DNA of 64,000 bases from Holophagales bacterium UBA5066 (GCA_002414905.1 DIAY01000212.1:51697-115696); one strand, 5' to 3'; counted from the first letter of the stretch, positions 18,346-48,955 are shown. A program made the numbers and translations. Notes: a model not told the origin generated them from the sequence alone.

Positions 18346-18888
18346 TCAGACCTCGCACTCCAGCATCGCGCGGAAGTACGACTGCGGGTGCGCGCAGACG
18401 GTGCAGACCTTCGGTGCCTCCAGCCCCTTTTCGATGTGTCCGCAGTTCGTGCAGTACCAGTAGACCTCGGTCCCCTTCTTGAAGACGGCACCGGCCTTGA
18501 GGTCCTCGAGGGCCTTGCGGAACCGCATCTCGTGGTGCTTCTCGACATCGGCGAGCTGAGTAAAGAAGTGGGCGATCGGGACGAAGCCTTCCTCCCCGGC
18601 CTCCTTCGCCATCCTCACGTACATGTCGGTCCACTCCATGTTCTCTGCCGCGATGCACGTCTCGAGGTTCGCGTCCGTCGCGGCGAGCATGTCGAGGAAC
18701 TTGAACATCCGCTTGGCGTGCTCTTTCTCCTCCTCGGCCGTCGTCTCGAAGACCTTCGCGATCTCGAGGAGGCCCGACTTGCGGGCCTCGCTCGCGAAGA
18801 AGGTGTACTTGTTGCGGGCCATCGATTCGCCGGCAAAGGCTTCCTTCAGGTTCTTCTCGGTCTTCGTTCCGGTCAGCTTTCCAGCCAT
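18346..18888 (-). CDS. rbr: rubrerythrin
   Basis: Ferritin-like EEEKEHAKRM and FTQLADVEKHHE motifs plus a C-terminal rubredoxin CTNCGH...CTVCAH. Confidence 0.9.
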   Translation of the reverse strand: MAGKLTGTKTEKNLKEAFAGESMARNKYTFFASEARKSGLLEIAKVFETTAEEEKEHAKRMFKFLDMLAATDANLETCIAAENMEWTDMYVRMAKEAGEEGFVPIAHFFTQLADVEKHHEMRFRKALEDLKAGAVFKKGTEVYWYCTNCGHIEKGLEAPKVCTVCAHPQSYFRAMLECEV

Positions 18889-19011: not shown

Positions 19012-19782
19012 ATGACGAAGACGATTCCTCGTGGCCCGGACGGTCGGCGCGTCCGGCAGCTTCTCTCGCAGGCCAGACCGCACCGCACCGTCCCGGCGCG
19101 GGTGGAAGTGCTCTCGGCGAGCCTCGTCGGCTGCCCCTACGAAGCCAACGGGCTGGCAGGCTCGGCGGAGACGCCCGAGGTCTTCACCGCCTCCCTCGAC
19201 CGCTTCGACTGCGTGACCTACGTCGAGACGGTCCTCGCGCTGGCTCGCGCCTCCGGGCCCGACGGTTTCGCCGGGGAGCTGCGCCGGATCCGGTATGACG
19301 GCGGCGAGGTCGAGTGGGCCCGCCGGAACCACTACATGACCGACTGGGTCCGGCGGAACGCGAAGGCCGGACTCGTGAAGCCCGTCCCGCCGGGAGCGCT
19401 CGGCACGAAAAGGGCGCGGCTCCTCGACGCGGTCGAGGGCCTCCCGCCACGGCGGACGCGCTTTTCCTGCGTCCCGAAGGCGGGGTGGCCGGCGTTCGCT
19501 CCCCGCGTGAGAAACGGGGACGTGATTCTTTTCGCCAGTACGAACCCTCGACTCGACGTCTTCCACTGCGGCCTCCTCGTTCTCGCGGGCGGACGCTGGA
19601 ATCTCCGCCACGCCTCGCGCAGCCAGGGCCGGGTCGTGGAAGAGGAGCTTTCGGGTTTCCTCGCGGGCAACAGGATGGCCGGCGTGATCGTCGTGAGGCC
19701 GCTCGAGGTGGCCGGCCCGCCGGTTCCTCCCGCCCGCTCGTCGCCCGTGGTAAAGGGCGGCGGGGCGAAAGGGAAGGCGTGA
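19012..19782 (+). CDS. DUF1460-like (N-acetylmuramoyl-L-alanine amidase-like) protein
   Basis: Contains FDCVTYVETVLALA and ends DVFHCGLLVLAGGRWNLRHAS. The fold assignment comes from family resemblance only. Confidence 0.55.
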   Translation: MTKTIPRGPDGRRVRQLLSQARPHRTVPARVEVLSASLVGCPYEANGLAGSAETPEVFTASLDRFDCVTYVETVLALARASGPDGFAGELRRIRYDGGEVEWARRNHYMTDWVRRNAKAGLVKPVPPGALGTKRARLLDAVEGLPPRRTRFSCVPKAGWPAFAPRVRNGDVILFASTNPRLDVFHCGLLVLAGGRWNLRHASRSQGRVVEEELSGFLAGNRMAGVIVVRPLEVAGPPVPPARSSPVVKGGGAKGKA

Positions 19783-21068
19783 GCGTCCTCCACCCGATGC
19801 CCCCTTCCTCCGGGGCCCTCGCCGCCCTCCTGGAGACGGCGGGCCAGGACGTCCTCTTCCTCGCCGACCCGCGCGTCACGGTGCATCCCGGGCCCAGGAT
19901 GTTCGAACGGATGGCACAGGTGCTGAGGGACACGGGTGCGGGCTGGGTCTACTCGGACGCCACCGGCCACCCGCGGATCGATTACCGTCCCGGGAGCCTG
20001 CGCGACACGTTCGAGTTCGGGCCGGTCGTCGCCCTCGCGGTGAACGCGGCGCGAGAGGCGGGCGCCGAGCCGGACCTTCGCTGGGGAGCCCTCTATGACC
20101 TCCGGCTCCGCCTCTCGGAGAGATGGCCGGTCGTCAGGATCCCGGAACCGCTCTACATGGCGAGCCTTGCCGAGGTGAGGCCCTCGAACGAGGCCCAGTT
20201 CGACTACGTCGATCCTCGCCACCGCGACTTCCAGGTCGAGATGGAGCGCGTCGCGACGGAACACCTCCGGCGGATCGGCGCGCTCCTCCCTCCGCGGTTC
20301 GAGGCGGTGTCGAGGTCGGACGGGAGCTTTCCGGTCGAAGCGAGCGTCGTCATTCCCGTCCGCAACCGCGAGCGGACGATCCTCGACGCCGTCGGCAGCG
20401 CGCTCTCGCAGCAGGCGCCGTTCCCGTTCAACGTCCTCGTCGTCGACAACCACTCCACCGACGGGACGACGGAGATGCTCCGCGGCGTCCGCGACCCGCG
20501 GCTCGTCCACGTCATTCCGGAACGGCGCGACCTCGGAATCGGCGGCTGCTGGGACGAGGCGGTCTTCCATCCGCGCTGCGGCCGCTTCTCGGTCCAGCTC
20601 GACTCGGACGACCTCTACCTCGACGAGAACGTCCTCGCCCGCATCGTCGGGGGGCTGGAACGGGGGCCGTACGCGATGGTCGTCGCGTCGTACACGATGG
20701 TCGACTTCGCGCTGAACGAGATTCCGCCCGGCCTCGTCGACCACCGCGAGTGGACTCGCGAGAACGGCCGCAACAACGCCCTTCGCGTGAACGGTTTCGG
20801 CGCGCCGCGGGCCTTCGACACCGCGGTCCTCCGGCGCGTCGGCTTCCCGAACGTCAGCTACGGCGAGGACTACGCCGTCGCCCTCCGGATGAGCCGCGAG
20901 TACGAGATCGGCCGCATCTACGAGTCGGTCTACCTCTGCCGCCGCTGGGAAGGGAACTCCGACAGCGCCCTCCCGCTCGAGACGCAGAACCGCTACGACG
21001 CCTACAAGGACTGGCTCCGGACGGTGGAGATCGCCGCCCGGCAGCGAACGCCGGGAGCCCGGCCCTGA
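19779..21068 (+). CDS. family 2 glycosyltransferase with a ~180-aa N-terminal extension
   Basis: The GT2 core ASVVIPVRNRERTILDAVGS...VLVVDNHSTDGT...QLDSDD lies in the second half of the protein. The start is either the GTG at 19779 overlapping the upstream stop or the ATG at 19797. Confidence 0.8.
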   Translation: MSVLHPMPPSSGALAALLETAGQDVLFLADPRVTVHPGPRMFERMAQVLRDTGAGWVYSDATGHPRIDYRPGSLRDTFEFGPVVALAVNAAREAGAEPDLRWGALYDLRLRLSERWPVVRIPEPLYMASLAEVRPSNEAQFDYVDPRHRDFQVEMERVATEHLRRIGALLPPRFEAVSRSDGSFPVEASVVIPVRNRERTILDAVGSALSQQAPFPFNVLVVDNHSTDGTTEMLRGVRDPRLVHVIPERRDLGIGGCWDEAVFHPRCGRFSVQLDSDDLYLDENVLARIVGGLERGPYAMVVASYTMVDFALNEIPPGLVDHREWTRENGRNNALRVNGFGAPRAFDTAVLRRVGFPNVSYGEDYAVALRMSREYEIGRIYESVYLCRRWEGNSDSALPLETQNRYDAYKDWLRTVEIAARQRTPGARP

Positions 21069-21973
21069 AGGTCGACCTCCCGCGGGACGTCGAGGCGCTC
21101 TTCCGGCAACAGCGGGAGGAGTGGCCCCTGCTTCGGAAGGGCCTGGCGGGCCTCGCCGAAGCCCTCACGCGTCCCCTGATCTCAGATGGGGTCGAGGTCC
21201 TGCTGCGCCACATTCCGCACCGCGTCGCGAGCACGACGGCGGCCGTGGATCGCGAGTCGATCGCGAGGCGCCCCTGCTTCCTCTGTGTCGCGAACCTTCC
21301 CCCGGAGCAGAGGGGCCTCGCGTGGGGCGAGGGCTTCACGCTCCTCTGCAACCCGTTCCCCATCGTGGAACGGCACCTCACCATCGTCCACCGGGAGCAT
21401 CGCCCACAGCAAATCGAGGGACAGGTCGGAACGATGCTCGACCTCGCGGCGGCGCTTCCCGGCTTTTTCACCGTCTACAACGGCCCGCAGTGCGGCGCCT
21501 CTGCACCCGACCACCTGCACCTGCAGGCCGGATTGCGGGACGAGCTCCCGATCGTGAGGGAAACGGCCGGGAAAGCGGGGCCGGCGATCGAGACATACGG
21601 GGTAAGGGCGCTGCTCTTGCGCGGGCCGGACCGGTCGCAAGTCGTGGACGAGACGGAACGGGCCCTCGCGCTCCTCTCCGCCGTGACCGGGAAGGAGCCG
21701 GAGCCGTGGTGCAACGTCGCGGCCTGGGCGGAGCCGGAGTCCGGCTTCTCGCTGGTGCTGTACCCCCGAAGCAGGCACCGGCCCGACGCCTTTCACACGG
21801 GCGAGCTGGCAGTCAGCCCGGCCACGATCGATATGTCGGGAATTCTCGTGGCGCCCTTTGCGAGGGATTTCGAGTGTCTCTCCGGCGACGACGCGGCGGC
21901 CGTCTACCGCGAAGTCACGATTCCCCAGGACCAGTTCCGGGACGTTCTGGCCCGGCTGGAGAGCCGATGCTGA
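21065..21973 (+). CDS. DUF4922-like protein (HIT/GalT-like nucleotidyltransferase fold, HLHLQ motif)
   Basis: This is the C-terminal ~300 codons of ORF 20123..21973. It contains LLCNPFPIVERHLTIVHREH and DHLHLQAG. No ATG, GTG or TTG occurs in frame between the GT2 stop and residue ~115, so the start is unresolved. It lies in the -1 frame relative to GT2. Confidence 0.6.
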   Translation: MKVDLPRDVEALFRQQREEWPLLRKGLAGLAEALTRPLISDGVEVLLRHIPHRVASTTAAVDRESIARRPCFLCVANLPPEQRGLAWGEGFTLLCNPFPIVERHLTIVHREHRPQQIEGQVGTMLDLAAALPGFFTVYNGPQCGASAPDHLHLQAGLRDELPIVRETAGKAGPAIETYGVRALLLRGPDRSQVVDETERALALLSAVTGKEPEPWCNVAAWAEPESGFSLVLYPRSRHRPDAFHTGELAVSPATIDMSGILVAPFARDFECLSGDDAAAVYREVTIPQDQFRDVLARLESRC

Positions 21974-23190
21974 ACGTCGCGGTCGGCCTGATGGAGGGTC
22001 TCCCGGCGGTCGAGGTCGAGCTGCTCGGGGAGTTCACCGACCCGGCCGGCGTCCGGCTCACGCCCGGGCGGCGCCGGCTCGAGGCGGAAACGACGCTCGT
22101 TCCCTCCGACCCGGCCTCGTCCGCCTTCGCCTTCGACCACGTCACGATCGGCATCGGTTTCCACTGGGAGCGGAAGGAACGGCAGGTGTTTCGCGGAACC
22201 CTCCGCGTCCTTCGCCGTCTCGCGGGGCTGACGGTCGTCAACGACGTGACGCTCGAGGCGTACGTCGCGAGCGTGATCTCCTCGGAGATGAGCGCGACGT
22301 GCCCGGTCGAGCTCCTGAAAGCCCATGCCGTCATCTCGCGCAGCTGGCTGAAAGGGCCGGCCGCGGCCGGGGTCGCGTCGCCGCCGACAACCGCGTCCGG
22401 CGAGATCCTTCGCTGGTACGGCCGCGAGGCGCACCCCGACTTCGAGGTCTGTGCCGACGACCACTGCCAGCGCTACCAGGGGATCACAAAGGCCGTCTCG
22501 CCCGCCGTCGCCGCCGCCGTTGACGCCACCGCGGGCGAGATGCTCCGCTTCGGCGGTGCGATCTGCGACACGCGCTTCTCCAAGTGCTGCGGCGGACTCA
22601 CCGAACGCTACGACACGGCGTGGGACGACCAGGAGATTCCCTACCTCGTCTCGTTCTCCGACGGCCTGACGGAGCCGGTCCCCGCGGATCTCGACCGTTT
22701 CATTCGCTCGAGTCCGCCGGCTTTCTGCAACACGACCGACGCGGCCCTCCTCGCCCGCATCCTTCCCGGCTTCGACCAGGAAACCCGCGACTTCTTCCGT
22801 TGGACCGTCTCGTACGAGGGGGAGGAGCTGGGCGAGCTCGTCGCCTCCCGTCTCGGCGTTGACCTCGGGCCAGTCGTGGCCCTGGAGCCCCTCGCGCGCG
22901 GCCCCTCGGGACGGATCTTCCGCCTCCGGATCACGGGCGAGCGCGGCACGCTCGTCGTCGGCAAGGAGCTCGAGATCCGGCGCTCTCTCTCCCGCTCGCA
23001 CCTCTACAGCTCGGCGTTCGTCGTCGACCGCGACGCGGCCGGCCGCTTCGTCCTGACCGGCGCGGGCTGGGGGCACGGCGTCGGCCTCTGCCAGATCGGG
23101 GCGGCGGTGATGGCGGAGCGGGGATACGGCTACCGCGAGATCCTCGCGCACTACTACCCGGGGACGATGGTCGGACGACAGGAATACTGA
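21967..23190 (+). CDS. SpoIID/LytB domain protein
   Basis: Contains MLNVAVGLMEG...EAYVASVISSEM...KAHAVISRSW and a C-terminal GWGHGVGLCQIGAAVMAERGY. Its ATG overlaps the DUF4922 stop as ATGCTGA. Confidence 0.85.
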   Translation: MLNVAVGLMEGLPAVEVELLGEFTDPAGVRLTPGRRRLEAETTLVPSDPASSAFAFDHVTIGIGFHWERKERQVFRGTLRVLRRLAGLTVVNDVTLEAYVASVISSEMSATCPVELLKAHAVISRSWLKGPAAAGVASPPTTASGEILRWYGREAHPDFEVCADDHCQRYQGITKAVSPAVAAAVDATAGEMLRFGGAICDTRFSKCCGGLTERYDTAWDDQEIPYLVSFSDGLTEPVPADLDRFIRSSPPAFCNTTDAALLARILPGFDQETRDFFRWTVSYEGEELGELVASRLGVDLGPVVALEPLARGPSGRIFRLRITGERGTLVVGKELEIRRSLSRSHLYSSAFVVDRDAAGRFVLTGAGWGHGVGLCQIGAAVMAERGYGYREILAHYYPGTMVGRQEY

Positions 23191-42735: not shown

Positions 42736-43077
42736 ATGCTGAAGATCACGACCTGGACCGAGCATGAAGAAGTCTGTCTGAAGCTCGAGGGCGACCTGGT
42801 CGGTACCTGGGTTCGCGATCTCGAAGAGTGCTGGCGGTCGAACCGTTCGAAGGGCGGCGGCTCGGGGGTCTGCCTCGACCTCACGGGCGTCACGCGCGTG
42901 GACGACGCGGGTCGCTATCTCCTCGCGCTGATCCAGGAGACCGGGGCTCGGATGGTCTCGACCGGTGTCGCGATGAAGGACCTGCTCGAGTCGATCGCCC
43001 GCGACTGGCCGCGGGCGCGGACCGAGAGCAAGGGTTGGGTTGCCCTCCCCACGGCCCGTGCGGCCGATGCGGGATGA
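42736..43077 (+). CDS. STAS-domain protein (anti-sigma-factor-antagonist / SpoIIAA-like fold)
   Basis: 113 aa. Contains CLKLEGDLVG...VCLDLTGVTRVDDAGRYLLALIQETGARMVSTGV. It is the first gene of the RND operon. Confidence 0.7.
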   Translation: MLKITTWTEHEEVCLKLEGDLVGTWVRDLEECWRSNRSKGGGSGVCLDLTGVTRVDDAGRYLLALIQETGARMVSTGVAMKDLLESIARDWPRARTESKGWVALPTARAADAG

Positions 43078-43112
43078 AGCACCCGGAACCAGACCACGAG
43101 AAGAACAGCCGA

Positions 43113-44324
43113 ATGAGCTCGATGGAGAAACAGATGAGTGAACGCCGTCCCCTTTTCCCGGCCTTTCCGATTCTCGCCACCGCCACCGTCGTCGCGGTGC
43201 TGACCGCCGCGTGCGGCAAGGGCCCGGCTCAGCCGCCGCAGGGGCCGGCCGAGGTCGGTGTCGTCACGATGACGACCGAGAAGGTCATCCTGACGACGGA
43301 GCTCCCGGGCCGTACGTCGCCTTTCCTCGTCGCCGAGGTCCGCCCGCAGGTGAACGGTCTCCTTCGTGAGAGGAGCTTCGAAGAAGGCTCCAGCGTGAAG
43401 GCGGGCGCGCTCCTCTACCAGATCGACCCGGCTCCCTACCAGGCCGCGTTCGAACAGGCGAAGGCGTCGCTCGCGATGGCCGAAGCGAACCTCCCGGCCG
43501 CTCGTGCGCGCGCCGCACGACTCAAGGGGCTGGTCGAGATTCGCGCCGTCGGGCAGCAGGACTACGACGACGCCGCAGCGGCGGCGATGCAGGCCGAGGC
43601 GGGCGTCGCGGCCGCGAAGGCGACCGTGGAGAGCGCGCGGATCAACCTGTCCTACACGCCGATCCGCGCACCGATCTCCGGCCGGACGGGCAAATCGAGC
43701 GTGACCGTCGGCGCGCTCGTGACGGCGTACCAGCCGGTTCCCCTCACGGTCGTCCAGCAGCTCGACCCGATCTACGTCGACGTGACGCAGTCCTCCGTCG
43801 AGCTCCTCCACCTTCGGGAAGGATTCAGGAGCGGAGGCCTCACCCGGAACGACGCCTCATGGAGCAAGGTCAAGCTCGTCCTGGAGGACGGGACGACCTA
43901 CCCGCGGGAAGGGAAGCTCAAGTTCCGCGACGTGACGGTCGACCCGACGACCGGGTCCGTCAGCCTCCGCATGGTCTTTCCGAACCCCGACGACCTTCTC
44001 CTTCCGGGGATGTTCGTCCGCGCGATCGTCGAAGAAGGTGTGATCAAGGACGCGATCCTCGTTCCCCAGCAGGGCGTCACCCGCGATCAGAAGGGACACC
44101 CCTACGCCCTCGTCGCCGGCAAGGACGGGAAGGCCGAGCAGCGGATGCTGACGCTCGACCGGGCTATGGGCGACCGCTGGCTCGTCACGAAGGGGCTCGC
44201 CACGGGCGACCAGGTCATCGTCGACGGTCTGCAGCGGATACGCCCCGGAGCCGACGTGAAGACGGTGCCGTTCACGGCGCCGGCCAGCTCCGGGCCCGGC
44301 ACGGCAGCCCCGGCGGCGAAGTAG
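43113..44324 (+). CDS. RND efflux periplasmic adaptor (membrane fusion protein) lipoprotein
   Basis: Has a lipobox LTAAC and HlyD-like coiled-coil and barrel regions (INLSYTPIRAPISGRTG). Confidence 0.9.
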   Translation: MSSMEKQMSERRPLFPAFPILATATVVAVLTAACGKGPAQPPQGPAEVGVVTMTTEKVILTTELPGRTSPFLVAEVRPQVNGLLRERSFEEGSSVKAGALLYQIDPAPYQAAFEQAKASLAMAEANLPAARARAARLKGLVEIRAVGQQDYDDAAAAAMQAEAGVAAAKATVESARINLSYTPIRAPISGRTGKSSVTVGALVTAYQPVPLTVVQQLDPIYVDVTQSSVELLHLREGFRSGGLTRNDASWSKVKLVLEDGTTYPREGKLKFRDVTVDPTTGSVSLRMVFPNPDDLLLPGMFVRAIVEEGVIKDAILVPQQGVTRDQKGHPYALVAGKDGKAEQRMLTLDRAMGDRWLVTKGLATGDQVIVDGLQRIRPGADVKTVPFTAPASSGPGTAAPAAK

Positions 44325-44333
44325 GGAGGCGCG

Positions 44334-47300
44334 ATGTCTCGATTTTTCCTCGAGCGCCCCGTCTTCGCCTGGGTTATCGCGATCGCGATGATGCTGGCGG
44401 GCGGCATGGCGATCGTGAACCTTCCGATCTCCCAGTACCCGCCCATCGCGCCGCCCTCGATCGGGATCCGGGCCATCTACCCCGGGGCGTCCGCGAAAAC
44501 CGTCGAGGATTCCGTCGTCCAGATCATCGAGCAGAAGATGACCGGGCTCGACCGGATGCTCTACATGTACTCCACCGCCGACTCGTCGGGCAGCACGCAG
44601 ATCACGTTGACGTTCGCACCGGGGACCGATCCCGACATCGCCTGGTCGAAGGTCCAGAACAAGCTCCAGCTCGCGATGCCGGCCCTCCCCGACGTCGTCC
44701 AGCAGGCGGGTGTGACCGTCAGCAAGGCGACACGGAATTACCTCCTCATCGCCGGCGTCGTCTCCGAGGACGGCAGCCTCGACAACGCGGACCTCAACGA
44801 CTACACCTCCTCGAAGATCGAGTCGGTCATCGGCCGGGTCCCCGGCGTCGGTGAAGTCGAGGTCTTCGGAACCTCCTATTCGATGCGGGTCTGGTTCGAC
44901 CCGGACAAGCTGACGAAGTACGGGATGACGTCGGACGACGTCGTCGCCGCCCTGAGGGCTTACAACGTCGAGGTCTCCGCCGGTCAGCTCGGCGGTGCGC
45001 CGGCCGTCCCCGGACAACGCCTCAACGCTTCGATCCTCGTCCAGTCGCTCCTGAAGACACCGGAGGAATTCGCGTCGGTCCCGCTCCGGACGAACACCGA
45101 CGGGTCGGTCGTGACGGTGAAGGACATCGGCCGGGCCGAGCTGGGCACCGAAGCTCCCGACGTGGCGTTCCGGTTCAACGGAAAGCCGGCGGGCGTCTTC
45201 GCGGTCCGTCAGGAGGCGGGGGCGAACGCCCTCGACACCGCTCGCCGGGTCAAGGAGAAGATGGAGGAGCTCTCGCACTTCTTCCCGCCCGGGATGAAGC
45301 CGGTCTACATCTACGACACGACCCCGTTCGTGAAGGTGGCCATCGACGACGTCTTCAAGACGCTCTTCGAGGCGATCATCCTCGTCTTCCTCGTCATGTA
45401 TCTGTTCCTCGGAAACCTCCGGGCGACGCTCATCCCGACGATCGCCGTCCCGGTCGTCATTCTCGGGACGTTCGGCGTCCTCGGCTTCCTCGGCTACTCG
45501 ATCAACATGCTGACGATGTTCGCCATGGTGCTCGCCATCGGGCTCCTCGTCGACGATGCGATCGTCGTCGTCGAGAACGTCGAGCGGATCATGAGCGAGG
45601 AAGGACTCTCCCCGCTCGAGGCGACCCGGAAGTCGATGGACGAGATCACGAGCGCCCTCGTCGGGATCGGCCTCGTCCTCTCGGCGGTCTTCGGGCCGAT
45701 GGTCTTCTTCCCGGGCTCCACCGGCGTCATCTACCGGCAGTTCTCGGTCACCGTCATCGCTTCGATGCTCCTCTCCGTCGCCGTCGCCCTCATCCTGACG
45801 CCCGTTCTCTGCGCGACGCTCCTCCAGCCCGTCGCCAAGGGGCACGAGACGGCGGAGACGGGCAGCAGCTTCCTGCGGCCGTTTTTCCTCTGGTTCGACC
45901 GGCTCTTCAACCGGTTGAGGGACCATTACACGCGGTCGGTCGGCCAGATCCTCGGAAAGAGAAGCCTCTTTGCCGTCGTCTTCGCCGTGATCGTCGGTGT
46001 GATGGTGCTTCTCTACCTCCGGATGCCGACCGGCTACCTTCCGGACGAAGACCAGGGGACGCTGATGGCGATGGTCCAGCTCCCGGTCGGCTCGACGCTC
46101 GAGCAGACGCAGGCCGTCATGGCTGATGTCGAGCACCACTTCCTCGTCGACCAGAAGGACGCCGTGAAGTCGTGCGGCGCGGTATCGGGGTCGGGTTTCG
46201 GCGGGCGAGGCCAGAACATGGGGATGATCTTCGTCCAGCTCAAGGACTGGAAGCTGCGCAACCGCCCCGGCCTGCGCGCCAAAGACGTCGCTGGCAAGGC
46301 GATGCAGGCGCTCTCGGGCCAGCGCGGCGCCATCGTCTTCGCCTTCCCGCCCCCCGCCGTCGTCGAGCTCGGTACGGCGACCGGATTCGACCTGATGCTC
46401 CAGGACCGGGGCGACCTCGGGCACGATGGCCTCACGGGCGCGATGGGTCAGCTCCTCGGGCTTGCCGCAAAGGATCCCCGCCTCGCCCGCGTCAGGCCGA
46501 ACGGGATGCCGGACGTCCCGCAGTACAAGGTCGACATCGACTGGGAGAAGGCGGGTGCCTTCGGCGTCCCGGTCAGCTCGATTCAGAGCTATCTCTCGGC
46601 GGCGTTCGGCAGCGCGTACGTCGGAAACTTCGTTCAGGGAGGACGGGTCAAGCGCGTCTACGCCCAGGCCGACGCCCCGTTCCGGATGCTCCCGGGGGAC
46701 TTCCACCGCCTCCAGGTCCGCAACCGCAAGGGCGGACTCGTCCCCCTGTCAGCCGTGACCTCGGGCCGGTGGATCTATGGTTCGCCGCGGCTCGAGCGAT
46801 ACAACAGCTTCCCCGCGATGAACATCCAGGGGGAGCCCGCGCCCGGACACAGCTCCGGCGAGGCGATGCTCGCCATGGAGGAGCTCATCGGCAAGCTCCC
46901 GGCCGGAGTCGGCTACGAGTGGACGGGACTCTCCTACCAGCAACGGATGTCGGAGTCGCAGACGGGGCTCCTCTACTCCTTCTCGATCCTCGTGATCTTC
47001 CTCGTCCTGGCGGCGCTCTACGAGAGCTGGACGGTCCCGATCTCGATCGTCCTCGCCCTCCCGCTCGGCGTCATCGGCGGCGTCATCGCCTCCTCCATGC
47101 GCGGCATGACGAACGACGTCTACTTCCAGATCGGTCTTCTCGCCGTCCTCGGCCTGACGACGAAGAACGCGATCCTCATCGTCCAGTTCGCCGTGGCAAA
47201 CCGCGAGAAGGGGATGGGCCTCGTCGACGCGACCCTCGAGGCGGCCAAGACCCGGCTCCGCCCGATCGTGATGACCTCGTTGGCGTTCGGTTTCGGTGTC

Positions 47301-47507
47301 CTGCCGCTCACGCTCGCGAGCGGAGCCGGGGCCGGCGCGCAGAAGGCGATCGGCACGAGCGTCCTCGGTGGCATGCTGAGCGGCACGTTCCTCGCCGTCA
47401 TCTTCATCCCGCTCCTCTACGTCCTCGTCGTTCGGCTCTTCGAGGGCAGGAAGGCCGAAGCGGCGCAACCCGCCCCCGAGGCGCCGCTCCCGGCGGAGGG
47501 AAAGTGA
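44334..47507 (+). CDS. RND multidrug efflux permease (HAE1/AcrB family)
   Basis: 1057 aa with 12 TM segments and two large periplasmic loops. AcrB-like motifs are present throughout. Confidence 0.95.
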   Translation: MSRFFLERPVFAWVIAIAMMLAGGMAIVNLPISQYPPIAPPSIGIRAIYPGASAKTVEDSVVQIIEQKMTGLDRMLYMYSTADSSGSTQITLTFAPGTDPDIAWSKVQNKLQLAMPALPDVVQQAGVTVSKATRNYLLIAGVVSEDGSLDNADLNDYTSSKIESVIGRVPGVGEVEVFGTSYSMRVWFDPDKLTKYGMTSDDVVAALRAYNVEVSAGQLGGAPAVPGQRLNASILVQSLLKTPEEFASVPLRTNTDGSVVTVKDIGRAELGTEAPDVAFRFNGKPAGVFAVRQEAGANALDTARRVKEKMEELSHFFPPGMKPVYIYDTTPFVKVAIDDVFKTLFEAIILVFLVMYLFLGNLRATLIPTIAVPVVILGTFGVLGFLGYSINMLTMFAMVLAIGLLVDDAIVVVENVERIMSEEGLSPLEATRKSMDEITSALVGIGLVLSAVFGPMVFFPGSTGVIYRQFSVTVIASMLLSVAVALILTPVLCATLLQPVAKGHETAETGSSFLRPFFLWFDRLFNRLRDHYTRSVGQILGKRSLFAVVFAVIVGVMVLLYLRMPTGYLPDEDQGTLMAMVQLPVGSTLEQTQAVMADVEHHFLVDQKDAVKSCGAVSGSGFGGRGQNMGMIFVQLKDWKLRNRPGLRAKDVAGKAMQALSGQRGAIVFAFPPPAVVELGTATGFDLMLQDRGDLGHDGLTGAMGQLLGLAAKDPRLARVRPNGMPDVPQYKVDIDWEKAGAFGVPVSSIQSYLSAAFGSAYVGNFVQGGRVKRVYAQADAPFRMLPGDFHRLQVRNRKGGLVPLSAVTSGRWIYGSPRLERYNSFPAMNIQGEPAPGHSSGEAMLAMEELIGKLPAGVGYEWTGLSYQQRMSESQTGLLYSFSILVIFLVLAALYESWTVPISIVLALPLGVIGGVIASSMRGMTNDVYFQIGLLAVLGLTTKNAILIVQFAVANREKGMGLVDATLEAAKTRLRPIVMTSLAFGFGVLPLTLASGAGAGAQKAIGTSVLGGMLSGTFLAVIFIPLLYVLVVRLFEGRKAEAAQPAPEAPLPAEGK

Positions 47508-48955
47508 TGAACGGCAAGCTGATCCCGCGTGGCCTCGCACTCCTCTCCGCAGCGCTCCTGGCAAGCGGCTGCACCATGATCCCGAAGTATGAACAGCCGC
47601 CTCTGCCGGTGGCGGACTCCTTCGAAGCGGCGGCCGGTGCCGGAAGCGGCACGGCACCCGCCCCGGGCGAGGCTGACCCCGTCCCCGCTGCGCCCGTCCC
47701 CGCGGCGAAGGACGTTCCCTGGCAGGAGTACATCACCGACGCACGCCTGAGGTCGGTCATCGACCTCGCGCTCGCGAACAACCGCGACCTGAGAGTCGCG
47801 ACGCTCAACATCGAGAGGGCCGCGGCTCTCTACCGGATCCAGCGCTCCGACCTGTTCCCGACGATCGGCGTCCAGGCGACGGGCAACAAGTACCGGATTC
47901 CGGAAAGCCTCGGGGAGAACGGGAAGGCGAGCACCGTCTCGACCTACACCGTCGGCCTCGGGATGGCCTCGTGGGAGATCGATCTCTTCGGGCGTATCCA
48001 GAGCCTGAACGCACGCGCCCTCGAGCAGTACCTCGCAACGGAGCAGGTCCGGCGCGGTGCGCAGACCTCGCTCATCGCGGCGGTCGCCCAGAGCTGGCTG
48101 CAGCTCGCGGCTGACGAGGAGAACCTCCGGCTCTCGAGGGAGACGCTCGCCGCGCAGCAGAACTCGTACGAGCTGATCCGGATGAGCCGGGACGCGGGGA
48201 TCGGCTCCGACGTCGAGCTTCGCCAGTCGCAGAGCCAGGTGGAGGCGTCCCGCGCGAGCGTCGCCGCCTTCACGGGCGCGGTCGGCGTCTCGCGCAACGC
48301 GCTCGACCTCCTCGCCGGAACACCGGTCCCGGCCGACCTGCTTCCCGACCGCCTCGTCGCAGTGACGGACCCGAAGGGGCTCTCCTCCGGCCTCCCGTCG
48401 GAGGTTCTCCTGCGCCGGCCCGACATCCTCGCCGCCGAGCATCTCCTCCGCGGCGCGAACGCGAACATCGGTGCGGCCCGAGCCGCCTTCTTCCCGCGCA
48501 TCTCCCTCACCGCCGGCTTCGGCACGTCGAGCCCCGACCTCGACGGCCTCTTCAAGGCCGGGACGAGCGTCTGGAGCTTCGTGCCCCAGATCGTCTCACC
48601 GCTCTTCGCGAGCGGCTCCCTCCTCGCGAACCTGAAGGTCTCGAAGGTCGACCGCGAGATCGCGGTAGCGACCTACGAGAAGGCGATCCAGACCGCGTTC
48701 GCCGAGGTCAACGACGCCCTGACGCTCCGGACGACGCTGGTCGCCCAGAAGGAGGCGCAGGACGCCCTCGTCGAGGCGCTCGACGCAACGCTGTTCCTCT
48801 CCGACGCGCGCTTCAAGGCCGGGCTCGACGGGTATCTCGGCGTCCTCGTTGCCCAGCAGGCGATCATCAACGCCCAGCGCGCAGCGGTCGGCGTCCGCCT
48901 CGCCGAGCAGGCGAACCTCGTGGCTCTCTACAAGGTCCTCGGCGGAGGGGTGTGA
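47507..48955 (+). CDS. RND efflux outer membrane factor lipoprotein (NodT/OprM family)
   Basis: The start overlaps the permease stop. It has a lipobox LASGCT and duplicated alpha-barrel repeats. Confidence 0.9.
   Translation: MNGKLIPRGLALLSAALLASGCTMIPKYEQPPLPVADSFEAAAGAGSGTAPAPGEADPVPAAPVPAAKDVPWQEYITDARLRSVIDLALANNRDLRVATLNIERAAALYRIQRSDLFPTIGVQATGNKYRIPESLGENGKASTVSTYTVGLGMASWEIDLFGRIQSLNARALEQYLATEQVRRGAQTSLIAAVAQSWLQLAADEENLRLSRETLAAQQNSYELIRMSRDAGIGSDVELRQSQSQVEASRASVAAFTGAVGVSRNALDLLAGTPVPADLLPDRLVAVTDPKGLSSGLPSEVLLRRPDILAAEHLLRGANANIGAARAAFFPRISLTAGFGTSSPDLDGLFKAGTSVWSFVPQIVSPLFASGSLLANLKVSKVDREIAVATYEKAIQTAFAEVNDALTLRTTLVAQKEAQDALVEALDATLFLSDARFKAGLDGYLGVLVAQQAIINAQRAAVGVRLAEQANLVALYKVLGGGV

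What the first reader, a model, noticed from the sequence alone, without database searches (positions are those of the whole stretch)
19779..23190. GT2 / DUF4922 (HIT-like) / SpoIID cassette with tight coupling, and no canonical start for the DUF4922 gene
The three genes are packed. The GT2 stop is followed directly by the DUF4922 frame (-1 relative to GT2), and that frame has no ATG, GTG or TTG for ~115 codons. DUF4922 and SpoIID then overlap as ATGCTGA. Possible explanations are a non-canonical start such as CTG at 21065, a programmed frameshift giving a GT2-DUF4922 fusion, or a sequencing error. The HIT/GalT-like HLHLQ motif suggests nucleotidyl transfer feeding the glycosyltransferase, and SpoIID/LytB links it to peptidoglycan remodelling.
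Basis: partly seen in the sequence, partly recalled or inferred. Interest (0 to 1): 0.55.

Follow-up and report, generated by a model that had tools for sequence, protein, structure and literature searches.

The report
Enzyme gene starting at a CTG codon
A conserved four-gene cell-wall-related operon in an acidobacterium has one gene (DUF4922, a sugar-nucleotide enzyme) with no normal start codon; related genomes indicate that it starts at a rare CTG codon overlapping the stop of the gene before it, a small but real exception to normal start-codon rules.

Summary
The cassette is real: AmiA-like amidase (19012-19782), GT2 (19779-21068), DUF4922 (21065-21973) and SpoIID-like (21967-23190), all joined by stop/start overlaps. 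In-frame GTGs exist at codons 61 and 101 and the first ATG is codon 124, but none keeps the conserved N-terminus. It is not a sequencing error: four independent assemblies have the identical junction, and nine distinct related lineages keep CTGA plus a non-start second codon (AAG, ACG or ACC). The first 60 codons are under purifying selection and form confidently modelled structure. The CTG sits where one sister lineage (L053) and the outgroup have ATG (ATGA overlap). A GGAG ribosome-binding motif lies 6-9 nt upstream in every lineage lacking a normal start. No slippery heptamer or conserved RNA structure supports frameshifting. Best reading: a separate ~302-aa protein initiated at CUG 21065, translationally coupled to GT2. 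Prevotella encodes GT2, DUF4922 and SpoIID as one ~1280-aa protein, so the three very likely act together. DUF4922 has the fold of Ap4A and NDP-sugar phosphorylases. This is a new variant of known phenomena, of moderate interest.

The parts
19012..19782 (+).
   Evidence: Pfam PF07313, 2.7e-35. Sequence matches to PDB 2p1g, 4h4j/4q5k/4q68 and 2im9. Present directly upstream of GT2 in all 12 clade loci.
19779..21068 (+). GT2 glycosyltransferase gene (429 aa); GTG start in a GTGA overlap with the AmiA-like stop
   Evidence: Pfam PF00535, 2.2e-17, residues 189-324. GTG or TTG at the same position in 10 of the 12 loci examined. 47-60% identical across phyla.
21054..21057 (+). Shine-Dalgarno-like GGAG inside the GT2 3' end, 7 nt upstream of CTG 21065
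   Evidence: Present 6-9 nt upstream of the CTG in all 9 lineages that lack a canonical start. It shifts register in L048 and L049. The background is 6-7% of positions.
21065..21068 (+). CTGA: proposed CUG start codon of DUF4922 overlapping the GT2 TGA stop (-4 overlap)
   Evidence: CTGA in 11 of 12 clade lineages. ATGA at the same place in L053 and outgroup L012/L013.
21065..21973 (+). DUF4922 gene, full-length product about 302 aa; GalT-branch HIT-superfamily nucleotidyltransferase/phosphorylase
   Evidence: Pfam PF16269, 9e-51. Orthologues are mostly 297-301 aa. AF2 pLDDT 92.3. Foldseek top hit is yeast Apa2 4i5t, E 8.4e-11. dN/dS of codons 2-60 is 0.15-0.52 for window-versus-relative pairs.
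21245..21247 (+). GTG used by public gene callers (242-aa P0004); judged to be a mis-called, truncating start
   Evidence: It would remove two helices, a beta-hairpin and the invariant RHIPHRxxSTTA motif.
21512..21526 (+). H-L-H-L-Q (HxHxQ) nucleotidyl-transfer motif of DUF4922
   Evidence: Read directly from the sequence. H150, H152 and Q154 are invariant in 65 homologues and align to the HKHLQ of Apa2.
21967..21973 (+). ATGCTGA: SpoIID ATG start overlapping the DUF4922 TGA stop by 7 nt
   Evidence: In 11 of the 12 clade lineages this junction has a canonical ATG, GTG or TTG start. In the twelfth, L052, a minus-strand gene separates the two genes.
21967..23190 (+). SpoIID/LytB-domain gene (407 aa), no signal peptide or membrane anchor detected
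   Evidence: Pfam PF08486, 1.3e-21. TIGR02669, 2.6e-46. PDB 4rwr match with the SEM glutamate aligned. Hydropathy maximum 1.31.

Best explanation
DUF4922 is made as a separate, full-length protein of about 302 aa. Its translation starts at the CUG codon at 21065, which overlaps the UGA stop of GT2 (CUGA). A ribosome finishing GT2, or one recruited by the GGAG motif 7 nt upstream, initiates there, so DUF4922 synthesis is tied to GT2 translation. All junctions of this operon are such overlaps (GTGA, CTGA, ATGCTGA).

The ancestral junction was probably an ordinary ATGA, as in the outgroup and L053. An A-to-C change, silent for GT2, left CTGA, and this state has persisted through the diversification of a Holophagae/Thermoanaerobaculia-like clade. 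Two lineages carry an ATG at codon 2; whether that is a later gain or an ancestral retention is not resolved by the tree.

Functionally, the four cytoplasmic enzymes form one module. They are an AmiA-like muramoyl-L-alanine amidase, a GT2 glycosyltransferase, a GalT/Apa2-like sugar-nucleotide phosphorylase or transferase, and a SpoIID-like glycan-cleaving enzyme. The last three are fused into one polypeptide in Prevotella.

What is shown: the gene order, the missing canonical start, selection on the N-terminus, the fold, and the fusions. What is inferred: that CUG is the codon used, that initiation is coupled to GT2 termination, and that the module processes peptidoglycan-derived (anhydro)muropeptide sugars.
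For: (1) Four independent assemblies carry the identical junction; two of them differ from the window at 9 and 2 other positions.

(2) Twelve clade lineages were compared. The junction is CTGAAG in the window lineage, L043, L044, L045 and L046, CTGACG in L047, L048 and L049, and CTGACC in L052. It is CTGATG in L041 and L054, and ATGAAG in L053. The outgroup has ATGACC. The window, L044 and L048 have no ATG, GTG or TTG from 20 codons upstream of the CTG to codon 60.

(3) Codons 2-60 have dN/dS 0.15-0.52 between the window and its relatives, against 0.20-0.27 for the rest of the gene. Q16, W20, G26, L30, R48, H52, R53, S56 and A59 are invariant in 65 homologues, so the start must lie before about codon 12. 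In the AF2 model, residues 5-57 form two helices, a hairpin and a helix, with mean pLDDT 87-98 per 10-residue block over residues 1-50 and 80 for 51-60.

(4) Apart from the poor AAG at codon 2, CTG 21065 is the only near-cognate codon between 18 codons upstream and codon 12.

(5) GGAG lies 6-9 nt upstream of the CTG in all nine lineages lacking a canonical start, in different codon registers, against a 6-7% background. It uses the rare GGA glycine codon; A is at 2% of 4-fold sites.

(6) The SpoIID junction in 11 of the 12 lineages, and other junctions in the window, use canonical starts with GGAG-type motifs, so the genome is not generally lax.

(7) Orthologues across phyla are about 297-301-aa stand-alone proteins, usually in an ATGA overlap with GT2.

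(8) CUG supports initiation at 1-2% of AUG in E. coli (bioRxiv 10.1101/063800). Gene pairs with -4 overlaps are translationally coupled and enriched for subunits of complexes (PMC10666635).
Against: No direct evidence (N-terminal peptide, ribosome profiling) exists for any of these uncultured lineages.

The C of the CTG is not conserved beyond expectation. 31% of GT2 4-fold sites with C in the window are invariant across the same 11 lineages, so selection for CTG itself is unproven.

CUG is a weak start in E. coli (1-2% of AUG). This fits poorly with the 1:1 stoichiometry implied by the Prevotella fusions, unless reinitiating ribosomes are less selective, and that is not established.

The phylogeny of the 12 lineages is poorly resolved (bootstrap 32-86% inside the clade). 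The number and direction of start-codon changes is therefore uncertain.
Confidence: 0.65

Rival explanations
1. A programmed -1 ribosomal frameshift near the end of GT2 produces a GT2-DUF4922 fusion protein, mimicking the true fusions of Bacteroidota.
For: The DUF4922 frame is -1 and is open for 966 nt upstream of the GT2 stop. In-frame GT2-DUF4922 (806 aa, L002) and GT2-DUF4922-SpoIID (~1280 aa, L009 and at least 120 Prevotella clusters) fusions exist. Most lineages have a G_GGA tetramer, on which P-site tRNA-Gly could slip -1, followed by the stop 3 codons later (read). SD-like motifs can stimulate frameshifting, as in dnaX (own knowledge).
Against: No X_XXY_YYZ heptamer occurs in the GT2 frame within 600 nt of the stop in any of the 9 lineages scanned. 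The G_GGA tetramer is absent in L047 (C_GGA) and L049. RNA folding at the junction is no better than shuffles (z = -0.15). There is no conserved structure or covariation (-1.76 kcal/mol). The last GT2 codon varies between CCC and UCC. Sister lineages have a plain ATG at codon 1 or 2 with the same stop.
Confidence: 0.08
2. Initiation is at another non-canonical or weak site near the junction, or at several sites. Candidates are the conserved upstream CTG 21011, AAG 21068, or a downstream CTG such as 21128. NCBI annotators chose such sites for relatives.
For: NCBI records start P0017 at a CTG 18 codons upstream of the GT2 stop and P0006 at a CTG at codon 12. CTG 21128 is preceded by GGGAGGAG at 6 nt in the window.
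Against: CTG 21011 is conserved because it lies in the conserved GT2 DWLRT motif, and it has no correctly spaced SD. Starts at codon 22 or later would delete the invariant Q16 and W20. The GAGGAG before 21128 is not conserved in relatives. AAG and ACC differ from AUG at the middle base or at two bases, and codon 2 varies among AAG, ACG and ACC.
Confidence: 0.12
3. The public gene call is right: translation starts at GTG 21245 (or later) and gives a 242-aa protein, and the upstream 60 codons are untranslated.
For: It is the first canonical in-frame start after the GT2 stop and is what automated callers chose (P0004).
Against: Codons 2-60 are under purifying selection in the DUF4922 frame. They contain nine family-invariant residues, including the RHIPHRxxSTTA motif, and form high-confidence secondary structure integral to the fold. 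The Pfam domain starts at residue 12. Relatives have the first canonical start at different places (codon 17, 27, 45 or none).
Confidence: 0.05
4. It is an artefact or a decaying gene: a sequencing or assembly error at the junction, or a pseudogene that has lost its start.
For: The sequences are metagenome-assembled. One related MAG (GCA_016716705.1) shows frame breaks in its SpoIID genes.
Against: The junction is identical in four assemblies from different samples. The same state is found in nine distinct lineages with dS of about 0.4-0.8 and dN/dS of about 0.2-0.3 over the whole gene. No frame breaks occur in the window's cassette.
Confidence: 0.03

Closest known systems
-4 (NTGA) stop-start overlaps with translational coupling by termination-reinitiation (Huber et al. 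2019 and 2023, PMC6728339 and PMC10666635; review PMC12548453)
   Same: There is a four-base overlap of the downstream start with the upstream TGA, an SD motif inside the upstream gene, an operon in which every junction is an overlap, and partners that likely form a complex.
   Different: N is C. The described motif uses ATG, GTG or TTG. Here the start position carries CTG, and this is kept in 11 of 12 related lineages, nine of which have no canonical start nearby.
Rare non-canonical bacterial start codons (E. coli infC and pcnB AUU, from own knowledge; CUG at 1-2% of AUG in Hecht et al., bioRxiv 10.1101/063800)
   Same: A near-cognate codon differing from AUG at the first base, preceded by an SD motif.
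   Different: No autoregulatory logic is known here. The codon is embedded in a stop-start overlap, and its use is inferred from comparative data, not measured.
Prevotella GT2-DUF4922-SpoIID single-chain proteins (for example P0214, named 'putative glycosyltransferase [Prevotella sp. CAG:732]')
   Same: The same three domains in the same order; GT2 is 47-53% and SpoIID 46-53% identical to the window's proteins.
   Different: They are one polypeptide of about 1280 aa with in-frame linkers. The window has three ORFs in different frames joined by overlaps, plus an AmiA-like gene upstream.
GalT-branch HIT enzymes: yeast Ap4A phosphorylase Apa2 (4i5t), Arabidopsis ADP-glucose phosphorylase (2h39), GalT (1hxq), GDP-L-galactose and GDP-D-glucose phosphorylases VTC2 and GDPGP1
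   Same: A two-domain fold (Foldseek E 8.4e-11 to 1e-3) and the HxHxQ nucleotidyl-histidine motif. VTC2 and GDPGP1 carry the same DUF4922 Pfam domain (PMC9871823, PMC7041677).
   Different: Only 12-18% identity to the solved structures. The substrate is unknown. The bacterial context (GT2, SpoIID, muramoyl amidase) has no counterpart in the characterised enzymes.
Programmed -1 frameshifting (dnaX, IS elements)
   Same: Two ORFs in the 0 and -1 frames with an SD-like motif upstream of the junction.
   Different: There is no slippery heptamer and no stimulatory structure, and close relatives have a normal ATG start.

Membership tests
DUF4922 / GalT-branch HIT superfamily | Match to Pfam PF16269 above the gathering score | tested here: met
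   172.1 bits against a cut-off of 23.6; profile positions 1-145 of 146, residues 12-156
DUF4922 / GalT-branch HIT superfamily | HxHxQ nucleotidyl-histidine motif | tested here: met
   H150-L-H152-L-Q154 (21512-21526), invariant in 65 homologues; aligned to the HKHLQ of Apa2
DUF4922 / GalT-branch HIT superfamily | Two-domain GalT/Apa2-like fold | tested here: met
   AF2 pLDDT 92.3, pTM 0.91; Foldseek 4i5t E 8.4e-11, TM 0.56-0.63; also 2h39, 1z84 and 1hxq
DUF4922 / GalT-branch HIT superfamily | NDP-sugar or dinucleotide phosphorolysis or nucleotidyl-transfer activity | not testable with these tools
   Needs enzyme assays
-4 overlap translational coupling (termination-reinitiation) | Downstream start overlaps upstream stop as NTGA | tested here: met
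   CTGA at 21065-21068
-4 overlap translational coupling (termination-reinitiation) | Canonical start codon (ATG, GTG or TTG) | tested here: not met
   CTG; no canonical start from 105 codons upstream (GTG 20750) to codon 60
-4 overlap translational coupling (termination-reinitiation) | SD-like motif within the 3' end of the upstream gene | tested here: met
   GGAG at 21054-21057, 7 nt upstream; conserved in 10 of the 11 CTGA lineages, including all nine that lack a canonical start
-4 overlap translational coupling (termination-reinitiation) | Downstream translation depends on upstream translation | not testable with these tools
   Needs reporter constructs with premature stops in GT2
Programmed -1 ribosomal frameshift | Slippery heptamer X_XXY_YYZ in the 0 frame | tested here: not met
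   None within 600 nt of the stop in 9 lineages
Programmed -1 ribosomal frameshift | Downstream stimulatory hairpin or pseudoknot, conserved | tested here: not met
   z = -0.15 against shuffles; alifold -1.76 kcal/mol with no covariation
SpoIID/LytB lytic transglycosylase | SpoIID/LytB domain match | tested here: met
   PF08486 1.3e-21; TIGR02669 158.7 bits against a cut-off of 83.3
SpoIID/LytB lytic transglycosylase | Glutamate of the SEM motif (taken as the catalytic residue from own knowledge) | tested here: met
   SSEMSA aligns to ASEMNA of SpoIID 4rwr
SpoIID/LytB lytic transglycosylase | Extracytoplasmic location (membrane anchor or signal peptide) giving access to the sacculus | tested here: not met
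   No hydrophobic segment (19-residue hydropathy maximum 1.31) and no signal-like N-terminus; heuristic test only
AmiA/DUF1460 NlpC/P60 amidase | Family match and similarity to the solved DUF1460 structures 4h4j/4q5k/4q68 (4Q5K is the DUF1460 amidase structure, PMC10318531) | tested here: met
   PF07313 2.7e-35; 4h4j/4q5k 2e-16
AmiA/DUF1460 NlpC/P60 amidase | Cys-His-His catalytic triad and specificity for 1,6-anhydroMurNAc peptides | not tested
   Residue mapping not done; specificity needs assays (activity described in Xu et al. 2014, as cited in PMC4600125)
GT2 glycosyltransferase | GT-A domain match with a DxD-type motif | tested here: met
   PF00535 2.2e-17; QLDSDD read in the translation

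The most novel reading that the evidence does not exclude
The CUGA junction is a selected device rather than a tolerated defect. Free 30S subunits rarely start at CUG, so DUF4922 would be made almost only by ribosomes that have just finished GT2. That would make its synthesis obligatorily coupled and co-localised with GT2. In this reading it is the unfused equivalent of the Prevotella single-chain GT2-DUF4922-SpoIID enzyme, serving a so far undescribed cytoplasmic pathway that handles peptidoglycan-derived sugars.
Probability: 0.25. Interest if true: 0.6.

Novelty: new variant of a known kind. Interest (0 to 1): 0.42.

Why it matters
Automated annotation truncates this protein by 60 residues or places its start arbitrarily. 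In public databases the close relatives have called lengths of 242, 257, 264, 275-283, 291 and 318 aa, and the loci examined show that these differences reflect start choice. Recognising the CTG start gives the correct 302-aa enzyme.

The case is a natural, evolutionarily replicated example of a non-canonical start inside a -4 overlap. It could be used to test whether reinitiating ribosomes are less strict about start codons.

Separately, the AmiA-like/GT2/DUF4922/SpoIID module is conserved from Acidobacteriota to Bacteroidota and is fused into one protein in abundant gut Prevotella. I found no paper characterising the bacterial DUF4922 proteins or this module. It points to an unknown cytoplasmic route linked to cell-wall sugars.

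Tried and rejected
(1) Sequencing error is rejected: the junction is identical in four assemblies and conserved in relatives.

(2) Canonical -1 frameshift signals were sought and not found: heptamer scan, single-sequence fold and alignment fold.

(3) A conserved hairpin hiding the SD was considered. The window's centroid fold pairs GGGAG with CUCCC and leaves CUGAA in the loop. The outer stem is lost in L043 and others, and there is no covariation, so this is rejected.

(4) Selection on the C of CTG was tested against a 4-fold-site baseline and is not significant (31% of comparable sites are invariant).

(5) Genome-wide gene calling by GC3, to ask whether CTG starts are common in this organism, was too noisy to use. 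It was replaced by inspection of six other same-strand junctions, which look ordinary.

(6) The search for related loci with the single protein found only distant relatives in genome and metagenome collections. Close relatives had to be fetched one by one, which used all 12 look-ups.

(7) Literature: 'DUF4922' occurs only in plant GGP and animal GDPGP1 papers. The DUF1460 structure paper (PMC4255150) is not held.

(8) A sequence search of PDB with DUF4922 alone found nothing, and a profile gave only a marginal Apa2 hit. The fold search was needed.

Full report
**What is in the sequence**

The region holds four co-directional genes, not three.
- An AmiA-like (DUF1460, PF07313, 2.7e-35) amidase gene at 19012-19782.
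- A GT2 glycosyltransferase gene at 19779-21068 (PF00535, 2.2e-17). It starts at a GTG that overlaps the amidase stop (GTGA).
- The DUF4922 frame, ending at 21973 (PF16269, 9e-51).
- A SpoIID/LytB-domain gene at 21967-23190 (PF08486, 1.3e-21), whose ATG overlaps the DUF4922 stop (ATGCTGA).

The GT2 stop is TGA 21066-21068. The DUF4922 frame is -1 relative to GT2, and its Pfam domain begins 12 codons after the CTG at 21065.

In-frame GTGs lie at 21245 (codon 61) and 21365 (codon 101), and the first ATG is at 21434 (codon 124). The nearest upstream canonical codon is GTG 20750, 105 codons before the GT2 stop.

**The N-terminal 60 codons are coding**

The homologue search returned 2162 proteins with E <= 1e-5, of which the best 120 are listed. 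Most of the listed ones are stand-alone proteins of 297-301 aa that align with the window's frame from codon 1 or 2 onward.

In a 65-sequence alignment, Q16, W20, G26, L30, R48, H52, R53, S56 and A59 are invariant, and L12 is nearly so.

Pairwise Nei-Gojobori estimates between the window and nine relatives give dN/dS of 0.15-0.52 for codons 2-60. The rest of the gene gives 0.20-0.27.

An AlphaFold2 model (pLDDT 92.3, pTM 0.91) places residues 5-57 in two helices, a beta-hairpin and a helix. The mean pLDDT per 10-residue block is 87-98 over residues 1-50 and 80 for residues 51-60.

The 242-aa product called by public pipelines from GTG 21245 (P0004) would lack all of this.

**It is not an error**

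The exact protein P0004 lies on contigs from one Logan assembly and three ENA assemblies. All four have the identical 260-nt junction. Two of them differ from the window at 9 and 2 other positions in the cassette, so they are separate populations.

**Relatives**

I fetched twelve lineages of the same clade. Their DUF4922 proteins are 71-87% identical to the window's. The sources label close relatives as Holophagales or Thermoanaerobaculia bacteria. All twelve have the AmiA-like, GT2 and DUF4922 genes in that order, with the SpoIID gene following DUF4922 directly in 11 of the 12. In all of them the GT2 stop is a TGA overlapping codon 1 of the DUF4922 frame.

The six bases at the junction are as follows.

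| Junction | Lineages |
|---|---|
| CTGAAG | window lineage, L043, L044, L045, L046 |
| CTGACG | L047, L048, L049 |
| CTGACC | L052 |
| CTGATG | L041, L054 |
| ATGAAG | L053 |
| ATGACC | outgroup L012, L013 (55% identity) |

Several points follow.
- Nine lineages have no canonical start at the junction.
- The window, L044 and L048 have none from 20 codons upstream of the CTG to codon 60.
- The CTG occupies the position of the ATG of an ordinary ATGA overlap in L053 and the outgroup.
- Gene callers coped inconsistently. Called lengths of 242, 257, 264, 275-283 and 291 aa occur among close relatives. NCBI records used CTG starts at two different places, P0006 at codon 12 and P0017 18 codons upstream of the stop.
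- More distant orthologues (Planctomycetota, Bacteroidota, Blastocatellia and others) usually have ATG or GTG in an NTGA overlap with GT2, or a short gap.

**Signals at the junction**

GGAG lies 7 nt upstream of the CTG in the window (21054-21057). It lies 6-9 nt upstream in all nine lineages without a canonical start.
- In L048 and L049 it sits in a different codon register, so it is not merely inherited sequence.
- It is absent in L054 and in the outgroup, which have ATG.
- Only 6-7% of positions in the window have GGAG in that interval.
- In most lineages it uses the GGA glycine codon, although A occupies only 2% of 4-fold sites in this gene.

This junction region is variable at the protein level in both frames. 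The GT2 tails read RTPGARP, RALGARS, RVVGATP and AAGRDRS, and the DUF4922 heads read KVDLPRD, TAGLASR and TESLAAG. GGAG and CTGA are nevertheless kept.

Apart from the poor AAG at codon 2, CTG 21065 is the only codon one base away from AUG between 18 codons upstream and codon 12.

Elsewhere the same organisms behave normally. The SpoIID junction carries ATG, TTG or GTG in 11 of the 12 lineages; in L052 a minus-strand gene separates DUF4922 from SpoIID. Other junctions in the window look ordinary, for example TAGggaggcgcgATG at 44322 and ggagggaaagTGATG at 47505.

**Frameshifting**

- No X_XXY_YYZ heptamer occurs in the GT2 frame within 600 nt of the stop in any of the 9 lineages scanned.
- The junction RNA folds no better than shuffled sequence (z = -0.15).
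- The 12-lineage alignment has no conserved structure (-1.76 kcal/mol, no covariation).
- A G_GGA tetramer could allow single-tRNA slippage in most lineages, but it is absent in L047 and L049.
- CCC_UGA, which I recall as being prone to +1 shifts, would lead to the wrong frame, and the last codon is UCC in several lineages.

I therefore rate a frameshift fusion as unlikely but not excluded.

**Limits of the argument**

- The C of the CTG is not conserved beyond expectation. Among 4-fold sites of GT2 that carry C in the window, 31% are invariant across the same 11 lineages.
- The tree within the clade is poorly resolved. I cannot say how many times the canonical start was lost or regained.
- In E. 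coli, CUG initiates at only 1-2% of AUG (bioRxiv 10.1101/063800).
- Whether reinitiating ribosomes accept it more readily is not established. The coupling literature describes NTGA overlaps with canonical starts (PMC12548453, PMC10666635).

**Function**

The DUF4922 model matches these solved structures.
- Yeast Ap4A phosphorylase Apa2 (4i5t, E 8.4e-11, TM 0.56-0.63).
- Arabidopsis ADP-glucose phosphorylase.
- GalT.

Its H150-x-H152-x-Q154 motif is invariant. It is therefore a GalT-branch HIT nucleotidyl transferase or phosphorylase. The same Pfam domain is found in the plant and animal GDP-hexose phosphorylases.

The upstream gene matches the solved DUF1460 structures 4h4j/4q5k. The B. uniformis AmiA of this family cleaves GlcNAc-1,6-anhydroMurNAc-peptide (PMC4600125).

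The SpoIID-like protein keeps the SEM glutamate aligned with SpoIID 4rwr.

None of the four proteins has a detectable signal peptide or membrane segment. Unlike sporulation SpoIID, they appear to be cytoplasmic.

GT2-DUF4922-SpoIID is conserved across phyla.
- In Mangrovibacterium (L002), GT2 and DUF4922 are one 806-aa ORF.
- In Prevotella (L009), all three are one 1276-aa ORF.
- The 120 best database hits to that protein are all fusions of about 1240-1290 aa, on many long contigs.

This Rosetta-stone evidence says the three enzymes work together, probably as a complex. That fits an operon in which every junction is a coupling overlap.

My inference, at low confidence, is a cytoplasmic module acting on peptidoglycan-derived sugars. 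The amidase would strip the peptide. The SpoIID-like and GT2 domains would break or make a beta-linked GlcNAc/MurNAc bond. The HIT-like enzyme would interconvert the sugar 1-phosphate and the sugar nucleotide.

**Verdict**

The finding is real and is explained best by a clade-conserved CUG start in a CUGA overlap. It is a new variant of known things: non-canonical starts and -4 coupling. It has practical consequences for annotation, and it belongs to an uncharacterised but widespread enzyme module.

Noticed in passing
L009 2423-6253 (Prevotella sp. SUG325); L002 2507-4927 (Mangrovibacterium sp.); P0121-P0240: GT2, DUF4922 and SpoIID are fused in frame into one ~1280-aa protein in Prevotella. 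GT2 and DUF4922 are fused into an 806-aa protein in Mangrovibacterium. The 120 best database hits are all such fusions, and the only one of them that carries a name is called just 'putative glycosyltransferase'.
   Followed up: yes
window 19012-19782: An AmiA-like (DUF1460) muramoyl-L-alanine amidase gene sits directly upstream and is joined to GT2 by a GTGA overlap, so the cassette has four genes. No signal peptide is evident.
   Followed up: partly
L041, L043, L045, L047-L049, L052, L053 (upstream 1-2.2 kb of each): In most relatives a GT4 glycosyltransferase precedes the AmiA-like gene, and in six of them a B12-binding radical SAM gene precedes that. In L041 the GT4 is fused to a PagL lipid A deacylase domain. 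The window lacks these genes and has a minus-strand rubrerythrin gene (18346-18888) there instead.
   Followed up: no
L043 4340-5551 and L046 3927-5138 (both from MAG GCA_016716705.1): The SpoIID genes of this MAG are split over several frames, so indel errors are likely. The MAG also carries two diverged copies of the whole cassette on different contigs (87% and 77% DUF4922 identity to the window), which suggests a mixed bin or a duplication.
   Followed up: no
L052 4466-6097 (GCA_046331465.1): A Tricorn/PD40-repeat gene on the opposite strand is inserted between DUF4922 and SpoIID, breaking the otherwise invariant overlap of those two genes.
   Followed up: no
L044 2471 (P0006) and L052 3501 (P0017): NCBI records annotate CTG start codons for this gene at two non-homologous positions: codon 12, and 18 codons upstream of the GT2 stop. 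Annotators met the same problem and solved it inconsistently.
   Followed up: partly
L008 2688-6248 (Prevotella disiens JCM 6334): The GT2/DUF4922/SpoIID region changes frame several times. It is probably a fused gene broken by draft-sequence indels, or a pseudogene.
   Followed up: no
window 42768-48955: Three large co-directional ORFs have ordinary SD+ATG junctions (TAGggaggcgcgATG at 44322; GTGATG at 47504). The middle one starts MSRFFLERPVFAWVIAIAMML, which looks like an RND efflux pump. I used these junctions only as controls for normal start-codon use.
   Followed up: partly
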